NCBI RefSeq assembly: GCF_009914755.1
Contig: NC_060935.1
DNA from: the human T2T-CHM13v2.0 reference genome, Homo sapiens
DNA length: 64,000 nucleotides
Strand: one strand, 5' to 3'
The notes under the pieces are model-generated. The model was not told the origin of the DNA. It ran no database searches and saw nothing but the letters and a program-made list of their open reading frames with translations. How positions within the stretch are numbered: the stretch's first letter is position 1; every line of letters starts with the position of its first letter. The position numbers and the translations under genes were made by a program. Positions 23,761-51,559 of the stretch are shown here, piece by piece.

Positions 23761-23959
23761 ACCCTCAGCCAGAGTGCCCTCCCGAGAATCTCAGTCAACT
23801 CAAACCTGAGGCCAGAGAAGTGTCATCACTTCATCCATCCCATGGCAGCTCTTTCACCTGAATGGGACATTTCTCAACATAGGTGAGACAGACACGGAAT
23901 CATGTGTAAATGGCTGGGTGTATGACAGAAGCTCCTTTCCCTTCTCCAACATGACTGAG
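23761..23959 (+). pseudogene. SLC22A9/A25-like unprocessed pseudogene, 3' half of exon 1
   Basis: Aligns to ~57523-57729 (CTCAAACCTGAGGCCAGAGAAGTGTC, CACCTGAATGGGAC, GGCTGGGTGTATGACAGAA, GACTGAG|GTAAGAGG); small deletions break the frame; intron-1 homology continues to ~24625. Confidence 0.93.
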
Positions 23960-24976
23960 GTAAGAGGCCTTGTTTTCCTTTCATGAGCACTGCCCTGGGT
24001 TTTTATAAATAGCACACGTAATAACCATGCTTCCAGCCTTTGGTCACATGTAGATACTTATTCTTCATTCTTTCAGCAAATATTAAGTGCTACTCTATTA
24101 AATGCCAGACACATACATATTTTATGAGGCTAATGAATTCAAAAGTAGAAATGCACCCTGTTATAATAGTGCTTTTATTCTTGGGCAGACAAAAGTTTAA
24201 GCAAGTAATTCATGCCTCTGTTATAAATGTTATGCTAGGTCAGTAAGTCTCAGCCTGTGGTCGCAAATTAAAAACATCTGGAAGGTTGATCAAAACCTCC
24301 ATGCCTAGACTGTACCCGCAGAGCAGTCATAGGAGAAGGAGTGCAGTGAATTCAGGATTCAGTAAACTTTTACAAGATCACAAATGTTTACAGTCCATGG
24401 CCAAGTTTGAGAACCACACTTACTATGGAGTAAGAGTGGTTATTAATATTACCTACAGGTCTAGGGGAAGCCTCTTAGGGAAAGTTATGTTTAAGCTGAG
24501 ACCTGAGTGATAAAGGTCAGGTAATGACAAAAATGGAAACTAGAGAGGAAGTTAGAAGCCTGCTATAATGAAACAATCAGGTCATGTTAAGGAGCTTTGA
24601 TCAGGTTCTACTGAGGGGTGGTAAGCTGCTGTGAAACTCTAATATTCTGTGGGGGGTGCATGGCAACATATTCAAGCTTACGTACACGGCATTTTAGGTC
24701 GGGGCATGGAAAAATGCTGAGGCACCGTGTGTATGTTATTTGTGCATAAGAATGAAAATTCTTGACCTTAAAAACAGGACAGGGAGTGGAAGGTGTAGTA
24801 TGATAAGGAACGCTGAAAACAGCCTCCTGAGAATGCAGTTTGAGTGCTTTTATAAGGCCACAGGTGTCTCACTACTCGATGTCAAAAAAGCCATCTAGTA
24901 GATGTTTGTTGTTTAACAAGCCCTTTCAATAAATACTTGGCAGAGGTATGCTGGGGCGGACTCTCTTAGAAAAGCT

Positions 24977-26285
24977 GCTAGCCATATGTAGAAAGCTGAA
25001 ACTGGATCCCTTCCTTACACCTTATACAAAAATTAATTCAAGATGGATTAAAGACTTACATATTAGACCTAAAACCATAAAAACCCTAGAAGAAAACCTA
25101 GGCATTACCATTCAGGAAATAGGCATGGGCAAGGACTTCATGTCTAAAACACCAAAAGCAATGGCAACAAAAGCCAAAATTGACAAATGGGATCTAATTA
25201 AACTAAAGAGCTTCTGCACAGCAAAAGAAACTACCAGCAGAGTGAACAGGCAACCTACAAAATGGGAGAAAATTTTTGCAACCTACTCATCTGACAAAGG
25301 ACTAATATCCAGAATCTACAAAGAACTCAAACAAATTTACAAGAAAAAAACAAACAACACCATCAAAAAGTGGGTGAAGGACATGAACAGACACTTCTCA
25401 AAAGAAGAGATTTATGCAGCCAAAAGACACATGAAAAAAGGTTCATCATCACTGGCCATCAGAGAAATGCAAATCAAAACCACAATGAGATACCATCTCA
25501 CACCAGTTAGAATGGCGATCATTAAAAAGTCAGGAAACAACAGGTGCTGGAGAGGATGTGGAGAAATAGGAACACTTTTACACTGTTGGTGGGACTGTAA
25601 ACTAGTTCAACCATTGTGGAAGTCAGTGTGGTGATTCCTCAGGGATCTAGAACTAGAACTACCATTTGACCCAGCCATCCCATTACTGGGTATATACCCA
25701 AAGGACTATAAAACATGCTGCTATAAAGACACATGCACACATATGTTTATTGCGGCACTATTCACAATAGCAAAGACTTGGAACCAACCCAGATGTCCAA
25801 CAATGATAGACTGGATTAAGAAAATGTGCCACATATACACCATGGAATACTATGCAGCCATAAAAAATGATGAGTTCATGTCCTTTGTAGGGACATGGAT
25901 GAAATTGTAAATCATCATTCTCAGTAAACTATCACAAGGACAAAAAACCAAACACCGCATGTTCTCACTCATAGATGGGAATTGAACAATGAGAACACAT
26001 GGACACAGGAAGGGGAACATCACACTCTGGGGACTGTTGTGGGGTGAGGGGAGTGGGGAGGGATAGCATTAGGAGATATACCTAATGCTAAATGATGAGT
26101 TAATGGGTGCAGCACACCAGCATGGCACATGTATACATATGTAACTAACCTGCACATTGTGCACATGTACCCTAAAACTTAAAGCATAAAAATAAAATAA
26201 TGATAATAATAATAATAATAATAATAATCTTTAAGTAAAAAAAGCTCTTAAATAGAATCTGGCATAAAGGAAAAAAAAAAAAAAA
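24977..26285 (+). mobile_element. 5'-truncated L1 (L1-A), L1PA3-like, with (AAT)n tail, short extra segment and second poly(A)
   Basis: ORF2 C-terminal peptide 24948..25634; 3'UTR; flanked by AAAAGCTGCT on both sides. Confidence 0.93.
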
Positions 26286-26295
26286 GCTGCTCCTC

Positions 26296-49650: not shown

Positions 49651-49774
49651 GTGACTGGAAGCACCTGCTCAATGGCTGCTCATCAACAACAAACCAGAGG
49701 AGGGCTTAAAAGAACTCAGAAAAGCTGCATGCTGGAATAGAATGAAGAATGCTGGAGACACCCTAACCATGGAG
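49651..49774 (+). pseudogene. SLC22-like pseudogene exon 5
   Basis: 124 nt, same length as SLC22A9 exon 5; [43 protein letters not shown] changed to TGA at the first full codon; CAG acceptor and GTGAGC donor intact; intron-5 homology continues to ~51470. Confidence 0.95.
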
Positions 49775-50345
49775 GTGAGCAGGATGGGAGCTGGATATAG
49801 GATGTGAGGAAGACATAACTTGCATTCATACTATCTAGTGTCCAAGGTGCATAAAGCATGGGAACACAGGTCTGATATGGCTCTTCTTATCTCACCTCAT
49901 TGTCCTGGTTCTCAAGGGGTGTTGCAATTGTTTGGCTTAGTGTTGAAAGAGAATATGTTGTTACTGAAAGAAATGGACACAGATACTTTACTTAGTAGAG
50001 ACAGAGGGCACTTAGTATTCCTTCTGGCTTAATATTCTTTGGGCTTTTTTCCAGGGCATAAGCCAGCAGAAGGAAGGGTTAGTGACCATGCAGAATAGAA
50101 CACCAAGAGATTCACTTATTTGTTTATTCACTCACACACTCATTCATTCATGTATATTTTCTGAGTGCCCATGTGTGTCAGGTTCTGGTCTATCCCTGGA
50201 AATACCACAACAATCATAAAGGTCAAAATCCCTGTTGTATGGAGTGTAAATTCTATTATTACAAGATTTAAGGGCATGACTAAGTGGAAATACCTCAGAG
50301 AAAGATTTCTCTTTTTTTTACATACAGATAGAAAACACAGATATT

Positions 50346-51380
50346 CCAACTTACAAGGGACGTGAAGGACCTCTTCAAGGAGAACTACAAACCACTGCTC
50401 AATGAAATCAAAGAGGATATAAACAAATGGAAGAACATTCCATGCTCATGGGTAGGAAAAATCAATATCATGAAAATGGCCATACTGCCCAAGGTAATTT
50501 ATAGATTCAATGCCATCCCCATCAAGCTACCAATGACTTTCTTCATACAATTGGAAAAAACTACTTCAAAGTTCACATGGCACCAAAAAAGGGCCCGCAT
50601 CACCAAGTCAATCCTAAGGCAAAAGAACAAAGCTGGGGGCATCACGCTACCTGACTTCAAACTATACTACAAGGCTACAGTAACCAAAACAGCATGGTAC
50701 TGGTATCAAAACAGAGATATAGCTGAATGGAACAGAACAGAGCCCTCAGAAATAATGCCACATACCTACAACTATCTGATCTTTGAAAAACCTGATAAAA
50801 ACAAGCAATGGGGAAAGGATTCCCTATTTAATAAATGGTGCTAGGAAAACTGGCTAGCCATATGTAGAAAGCTGAAACTGGATCCCTTCCTCACACCTTA
50901 TACAAAAATTAATTCAAGATGGATTAAAGACTTAAATAAACTGGATTAAGAAAATGTGGCACATATACACCATGGAATACTATGCAGCCATAAAAAATGA
51001 TGAGTTCATGTCCTTTGTAGGGACATGGATGAAATTGGAAATCATCATTCTCAGTAAACTATCACAAGAACAGAAAACCAAACACCGCATATTCTCACTC
51101 ATAGGTGGGAATTGAACAATGAGAACACATGGACACAGGAAGGGGAACATCACACTCTGGGGACTGTTGTGGGGTGGTGGGAGGGGGGAGGGATAGCATT
51201 AGGAGATATACCTAATGCTAGATGACGAGTTAGTGGGTGCAGTGCACCAGCATGGCACATGTATACATATGTAACTAACGTGTACATTGTGCACATGTAC
51301 CCTAAAACTTAAAGTATAATAATAATAAATTAAAATAAAAAAAGATTAAGGGATTTGGTGAAGTAAATGGAAAAAAAAAG
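50346..51380 (+). mobile_element. 5'-truncated young L1 (L1-C), L1PA2/3-like, with internal deletion
   Basis: Perfect 16 bp target-site duplication AGAAAACACAGATATT (50330-50345, 51381-51396); ~750 bp missing at ~50937. Confidence 0.95.
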
Positions 51381-51559
51381 AGAAAACACAGATATTGCTG
51401 TGGATCATAAAGTAAACCATTTATCATATTATGCACATATTAAACTGTGTTGAAAAATTATAGTAGGCTAGGCATGAAGCTTGATCATGAATAACAGTAT
51501 AAATCAGGGTCCCAGGTTTTAAGGAGCTTTTATCTTAATAAGAGAAAGTAAAAGTAATA

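What the first reader, a model, noticed from the sequence alone, without database searches (positions are those of the whole stretch)
23761..51470. Hidden unprocessed SLC22 transporter pseudogene fragmented by L1s upstream of SLC22A9
Exons 1 (3' half), 2, 3, 4 (stub) and 5 lie in order on the + strand with alignable introns. They span ~26 kb versus ~5.5 kb in SLC22A9, and the difference is largely transposon insertion. Lesions: lost 5' end, exon-1 frameshifts, exon-2 acceptor TG, TAG plus a 1 nt deletion in exon 3, stops and truncation in exon 4, TGA in exon 5. Residues such as [17 protein letters not shown] and LTME look, from memory, as close to SLC22A25 as to SLC22A9, so this may be a distinct lost member of the clade. 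It is invisible in the ORF track, and I cannot tell whether it is annotated.
Basis: partly seen in the sequence, partly recalled or inferred. Interest (0 to 1): 0.7.

Follow-up and report, generated by a model that had tools for sequence, protein, structure and literature searches.

The report
Dead sister gene of SLC22A9
Just before the human transporter gene SLC22A9 lies a broken, transposon-riddled remnant of the first five exons of a related gene; it cannot make an intact protein and is likely the fossil of a separate sister gene lost early in primate history, an ordinary kind of relic that the RefSeq table does not list.

Summary
Exons 1 (3' half), 2, 3, 4 (stub) and 5 of an SLC22A9-like gene lie in order on + at 23762-49774 with alignable introns to 51571; about 19.3 of the 20.5 kb excess length is transposon DNA. 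The lesions are real, but exon 1 has one frameshift, not several, and the intron-1 insert is an LTR-like element carrying L1s. Exons 6-10 were not found in the genome. Its closest relative is a second relic upstream of SLC22A25's coding exons on the opposite strand, diverged as deeply as SLC22A9 from SLC22A25, which suggests one inverted two-gene duplication. The two relics share no lesion; dN/dS hints at a constrained ancestor (0.26, p 0.055). No intact orthologue turned up, but non-simian primates were barely sampled. GENCODE and the key cluster paper could not be checked. Verdict: a real, dead duplicated pseudogene; modest interest.

The parts
21526..23755 (-). old L1 pieces abutting the exon-1 break (not masked in the hub table)
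   Evidence: inverted match to the L1 at 270-6408; best-scored genomic copies 80-84% identical
23762..23959 (+). relic exon 1, 3' half (SLC22A9 codons 66-134); in-frame 6-nt deletion and 2-nt frameshift; GT donor kept
23960..24649 (+). intron 1 homology
   Evidence: 75% to SLC22A9, 80% to the relic beside SLC22A25
24650..29107 (.). insert just upstream of the exon-2 acceptor: LTR-like element with two nested young L1 pieces (24969-28980), short TATTCT repeat on both flanks
   Evidence: sister relic is contiguous across it; genomic copies 72-90% identical, several in same-strand pairs about 4-8 kb apart; L1 pieces
29131..29234 (+). relic exon 2, open frame, acceptor AG>TG, donor GT kept
29235..41282 (+). 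intron 2, homologous in blocks 29235-31502, 39220-39335, 39826-40077, 41203-41282
31668..37699 (-). near full-length young L1 in intron 2
   Evidence: ORF1 and ORF2 Pfam domains; 91-94% to other young L1s in the window
40088..41200 (.). repeat fragments in intron 2
41283..41436 (+). relic exon 3, AG/GT kept, TAG stop, 1-nt deletion
41537..41590 (+). relic exon 4 stub with TAA and TGA
41591..49265 (-). old antisense L1 (with later inserts) standing in place of the rest of exon 4 and about 370 bases of intron 4
   Evidence: best-scored genomic copies mostly 72-79%; junction sequences
49285..49650 (+). 3' part of intron 4
49651..49774 (+). relic exon 5, AG/GT kept, TGA in place of the first Trp codon
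49775..51571 (+). start of intron 5 (with an L1 piece at 50343-51352); homology ends here

Best explanation
This is a dead, partial, intron-containing copy of an SLC22A9/SLC22A25-type organic anion transporter gene that cannot encode an intact protein, and it likely descends from a separate sister gene that likely worked until it was copied together with its neighbour and was then destroyed by L1 insertions, deletions and point mutations. Steps: (1, shown) exons 1-5 and introns in order, so it arose by DNA duplication, not retrotransposition. (2, shown by trees) its lineage split before SLC22A9 and SLC22A25 split from each other. (3, inferred, about 0.55) one inverted duplication copied the pair 'this gene + OAT7 ancestor', giving relic->SLC22A9 on + and sister relic->SLC22A25 on -, before New and Old World monkeys parted. 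(4, inferred, about 0.65) the gene still worked at that time, and both copies then died independently. (5, inferred from junctions) old antisense L1s took out the 5' end and most of exon 4 with deletion of the target; younger L1s and an LTR then inflated the introns.
For: Exon order, introns, lesions. Longest ATG-started stretch if the relic exons were spliced: 48 aa. No extra exon 6-10 set among 73 matches of full-length gorilla SLC22A9 in the genome. DNA tree ((A9,A25) 98/99,(relic,sister relic) 100/99), AU against joining the relics to A9 p 0.006 or to A25 p 0.0008; with outgroup introns trimmed p 0.010/0.011, without the sister relic 0.023/0.023. Quartet sites 67 vs 9 and 5. Intron K2P: A9-A25 0.26, relic-sister 0.23, cross pairs 0.35-0.38; difference of the first two 0.035 (95% -0.041 to 0.106), cross pairs deeper by 0.051-0.163. 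Saimiri has both A9 and A25. Lesions in the shared 300 coding bases differ between the relics. dN/dS 1.33 and 0.91 on the two relic tips, 0.26 on their stem, 0.64 background. L1s at the two coding breaks are older (72-84% to copies) than the big intronic L1s (91-95%).
Against: Protein-only AU tests do not reject relic+A9 (p 0.27) or relic+A25 (p 0.37). No dN/dS contrast is significant: stem vs 1 p 0.055, stem vs background p 0.19; relic alone 0.76, neither 1 (p 0.37) nor background (p 0.21) rejected. No DNA shared between the arms was found in the gap between relic and gene, which is mostly L1, and the mirror does not extend to SLC22A10: the third relic is an SLC22A24 copy. Gene conversion between A9 and A25 could make them look like sisters. 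A protein tree pulled that third relic into the relic clade (97/91), a sign of long-branch pull. Repeat ages rest on the 40 best-scored candidates only.
Confidence: 0.8

Rival explanations
1. A partial tandem duplicate that was dead on arrival: exons 1-5 of an OAT7 ancestor were copied without exons 6-10 and never worked; the sister relic is a later copy of this dead piece.
For: Exons 6-10 are absent genome-wide; the cluster holds other partial 5' copies, e.g. of SLC22A24; dN/dS of the whole relic branch does not differ from 1 (p 0.37).
Against: No lesion shared by the two relics in 300 coding bases despite a stem of about 0.07 changes per site; stem dN/dS 0.26 (p 0.055 vs 1); exon 2 is 83-86% identical in protein to A25 orthologues.
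Confidence: 0.25
2. An old tandem copy of SLC22A9 (or SLC22A25) itself; A9 and A25 look like sisters only because gene conversion kept them alike.
For: It lies in tandem 5.5 kb before SLC22A9; protein AU tests allow it; in block B4 the three pairwise intron distances are equal (0.25-0.26).
Against: A9-A25 are the closest pair in 4 of 5 intron blocks; DNA AU tests reject both joins; the relic keeps residues shared with laurasiatherian OAT7 where A9 and A25 share a change.
Confidence: 0.08
3. The human remnant of an old boreoeutherian paralog that is still intact in some other mammals (a unitary-type loss).
For: Its highest protein identity is to cetacean and camelid OAT7 (70-72%) rather than to human A25 (68.6%) or A9 (66.7%); cross divergence 0.35-0.38 is deep.
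Against: In the 318-column tree laurasiatherian OAT7s form their own clade (91/96) and the relics sit with simian A9/A25 (91/78, unstarred); the whale match fits short whale branches; exon-2 and exon-5 searches found only paralog-level named hits.
Confidence: 0.12
4. The remnant has a present role, for example as spliced exons of SLC22A10 read-through or non-coding liver transcripts.
For: Same strand, between two liver genes; exons 3 and 5 keep both splice sites.
Against: No promoter or first exon half; no RefSeq gene or functional element (hub table); the only 100% database hits are unspliced read-throughs of this DNA with TGA read as Trp. No expression data could be examined.
Confidence: 0.05

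Closest known systems
SLC22A25 (UST6) and SLC22A9 (OAT7)
   Same: Exon lengths and phases 104/155/124, 79-80% exon DNA identity, 71-73% intron identity
   Different: Outside their clade in DNA trees; partial and disabled
OATS4 subgroup / UST cluster at 11q12.3 (SLC22A9, A10, A24, A25; PMC7084758, PMC6760779, passages)
   Same: Inside the cluster and inside the OAT7 branch of the subgroup (97/95)
   Different: The passages read list four human members and use the word pseudogene 0 times
SLC22A10 and SLC22A20P, described human SLC22 pseudogenes (PMC11116522, PMC7555810, passages)
   Same: Loss of a conjugated-steroid-type SLC22 transporter on chr11
   Different: Those are recent or unitary losses with intact orthologues; this is old, partial, duplicated and no intact orthologue was found
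Duplicated (unprocessed) pseudogenes of birth-and-death clusters (own knowledge, e.g. CYP, UGT, OR clusters)
   Same: Same origin and decay pattern
   Different: Nothing of kind

Membership tests
unprocessed (duplicated) pseudogene | exons in gene order with homologous introns | tested here: met
unprocessed (duplicated) pseudogene | disabling lesions | tested here: met
   4 stops, 2 frameshifts, 1 lost acceptor, 2 internal or 5' truncations, no exons 6-10
unprocessed (duplicated) pseudogene | neutral evolution of coding remnant | tested here: inconclusive
   tip dN/dS 1.33 or 0.76, not different from 1 nor from background
unprocessed (duplicated) pseudogene | no transcription or translation | not testable with these tools
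   no expression data; database hits are unspliced artefacts
OATS4 / OAT7 clade of SLC22 | groups with SLC22A9/A25 and mammalian OAT7 rather than A10, A24, A11/12 | tested here: met
   97/95, 99/96; AU vs A10 p 0.026, vs A24 p 0.075
OATS4 / OAT7 clade of SLC22 | ten coding exons, full 12-helix transporter | tested here: not met
   only parts of exons 1-5; it descends from the family but is no working member
direct copy of SLC22A9 or SLC22A25 | sister to one of the two genes | tested here: not met
   DNA AU p 0.0008-0.023; protein AU not rejected
unitary pseudogene | intact orthologue in another species, no human counterpart | tested here: inconclusive
   none among 113 of 120 listed proteins, 5 hits, 54 hits; the 3 strepsirrhine proteins listed are A24-like
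processed pseudogene | introns missing | tested here: not met
already annotated locus | row in GENCODE or a paper | not testable with these tools
   absent from the RefSeq table given; GENCODE not held; PMC2712220 not held

The most novel reading that the evidence does not exclude
A fifth, undescribed OATS4 transporter gene worked in early primates; it was duplicated with the OAT7 ancestor in the single inverted event that created SLC22A25, both copies then died, and an intact orthologue may survive in tarsier, lemurs or colugo.
Probability: 0.3. Interest if true: 0.45.

Novelty: new member of a known kind. Interest (0 to 1): 0.25.

Why it matters
It fills an annotation gap in a drug- and steroid-transporter cluster and gives a dated marker for how the primate-specific SLC22A25 arose from SLC22A9. 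With SLC22A10 (described as a human pseudogene in PMC11116522) it adds to a pattern of repeated loss of conjugated-steroid transporters in this cluster. It has no likely physiological role today; its practical use is for annotation and read mapping.

Tried and rejected
One search was swamped by L1 hits and redone with a copy-number filter. One search had a frame error in my read-through; its numbers are discarded and replaced. mis-picked some exon ends (fixed) and SLC22A12 exon 5 was not found, so it was left out. Three-gene mirror (SLC22A10 matching the relic at chr11:63255523): rejected, that relic is a direct SLC22A24 5' copy. Displaced 5' half of exon 1 or rest of exon 4 within the window: not found. 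P0122/P0123 as transcript evidence: rejected. Right end of the LTR-like element did not align to the one genomic copy fetched, so its 3' limit rests on the flanking repeat and the sister relic. Clone-style gene names recalled from memory gave nothing relevant. Earlier scan findings were not available. No fold or complex prediction was run: there is no intact protein.

Full report
1. Observation. SLC22A9 exons 1, 2, 3 and 5 match the upstream region at E 3e-54, 6e-38, 1e-65 and 3e-61, and introns 1-5 align in order on + from 23762 to 51510 (to 51571 with SLC22A25). Shuffled exons score at most 39 against 148-225; the exon-4 stub is significant only with its intron flank at the expected place (55 vs 27). 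The lesions are as reported, except that exon 1 has one frameshift plus an in-frame deletion. About 5.2 kb of the 27.8 kb is SLC22-derived and 19.3 kb of the exon 1-5 span is in transposon blocks (limits set by hand).

2. Anatomy of the breaks. An old antisense L1 ends at 23755, six bases before the surviving half of exon 1; six paralog queries for the missing 5' part scored 36-48 against 33-40 for shuffles in 1-23760, so it is deleted, not displaced. At 41591 a T-rich run opens an antisense L1 that reaches 49265; intron 4 resumes at 49285, with about 490 bases of SLC22A9-equivalent DNA missing. This fits insertion with target deletion (inference). An element recognised from memory as an Alu sits near 41640-41950. 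The best-scored copies of these two L1s are 80-84% and mostly 72-79% identical (40 candidates scored each), older than the 91-95% L1s in introns 1, 2 and 5. The intron-1 insert starts with an element whose copies often occur in same-strand pairs a few kb apart, as LTRs do. A genome-wide search with full-length gorilla SLC22A9 gave 73 matches from 78 scored candidates; within the cluster exons 7 and 9 occur only in SLC22A9, A10, A24 and A25.

3. Relationships. The cluster holds two more unlisted relics. The one at chr11:63228302 (-) is the window relic's best match, 79-83%. On 3,584 exon+intron columns the tree is ((A9,A25),(relic,sister)), 98/99 and 100/99; AU rejects joining the relics to A9 (p 0.006) or A25 (p 0.0008); trimming outgroup introns or dropping the sister keeps p at 0.010-0.023. 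Exons alone leave A9/A25 unresolved. Protein trees used 46, 20 and 27 of the 120 listed database proteins (600 passed the cut-off), chosen for taxon spread: the relic is inside the OAT7 clade (97/95) and outside simian A9+A25 (97/95), but AU on protein does not reject either join. With all 318 columns the relics sit next to simian A9/A25 (91/78, not starred), apart from laurasiatherian OAT7s; that tree also drew in the SLC22A24-derived relic, a warning of long-branch pull. Against 113 of 120 proteins the best identity is 71.6% (porpoise OAT7) vs 68.6% (A25) and 66.7% (A9). Searches with relic exon 2 (5 hits) and exon 5 (54 hits) gave no named protein above 86% and 78%; these searches are word-limited and no strepsirrhine or tarsier OAT7-clade protein was seen.

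4. How it came about. Relic->SLC22A9 on + mirrors sister relic->SLC22A25 on -. The two pairs diverged equally (K 0.23 vs 0.26 on 750 shared intron columns; difference 0.035, 95% -0.041 to 0.106) and the cross pairs are deeper. One inverted block duplication is the simplest account; it predates the split of New and Old World monkeys because Saimiri has both genes. At a recalled neutral rate of about 2.2e-9 per site per year these depths are roughly 50-60 and 80 million years; treat as rough. Against it: no shared DNA in the L1-filled gaps and no extension of the mirror to SLC22A10. The relics share no lesion; my own codon model gives dN/dS 0.26 on their stem and 1.33/0.91 on the tips, none significant. 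So 'worked until duplicated, then died twice' is favoured, not shown.

5. What is known. Nine literature searches listed no paper on a pseudogene at this place. I read term passages only: PMC11116522 (SLC22A10 a unitary pseudogene), PMC6760779, PMC4633038 (SLC22A25 primate-specific), PMC10305468 and PMC7084758 (each 0 uses of 'pseudogene'), PMC2864566 and PMC2134963 (0 uses of 'slc22'; supplements not seen), PMC7555810 (SLC22A20P only; 2 of 10 supplement occurrences shown), PMC12507199 (irrelevant). The paper most likely to mention it, Wu et al. 2009, was not held, and GENCODE cannot be queried here, so 'unannotated' holds for the given RefSeq table only.

6. Verdict. Real; a dead, partial, duplicated pseudogene forming a distinct lineage of the OAT7 branch; new member of a known kind; interest 0.25. 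The mirrored-duplication reading of the origin of SLC22A25 is the part worth a follow-up with primate genomes.

Noticed in passing
G000:C11:63226000-63229101, - strand (L032; outside the window): Sister relic with promoter side, whole exon 1 and exon 2 (frameshifts, TAG, lost exon-2 donor), inside the annotated span of SLC22A25 but 9.5 kb before its coding exon 1; not in the hub's nearest-gene list.
   Followed up: yes
G000:C11:63253132-63259311, - strand (L035): Direct 5' partial copy of SLC22A24 (75-89% over several kb) with a still-open 134-codon exon 1 and exon 2 cut short by a repeat; not in the hub's list. More SLC22A24 intron pieces at 63146719-63150656.
   Followed up: partly
G000:C11:63279437-63279838 (L004): This assembly's SLC22A10 carries TGA at Trp96, the common p.Trp96Ter allele described in PMC11116522.
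   Followed up: yes
window 13853-14856: About 1 kb directly after an L1 3' end matches one other site, C23:24797339-24798329, at 88%, with no L1 upstream there; looks like an L1 3' transduction. It holds a 168-codon open stretch without Pfam match.
   Followed up: partly
window 15095-15304: 210 bases 95% identical to C3:191900890-191901099 next to the 3' end of the young L1 at 15332; possibly another transduction.
   Followed up: no
window 33218-35713, - strand: 832-codon open piece of L1 ORF2 with endonuclease and reverse transcriptase domains.
   Followed up: no
window 48228-48748: Degenerate tandem repeat of roughly 140-base period within the 5' part of the old L1.
   Followed up: no
window 49562-50029: Database proteins P0122/P0123 are this genomic DNA read with TGA as Trp, one residue different: spurious gene calls on host-like DNA.
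   Followed up: yes
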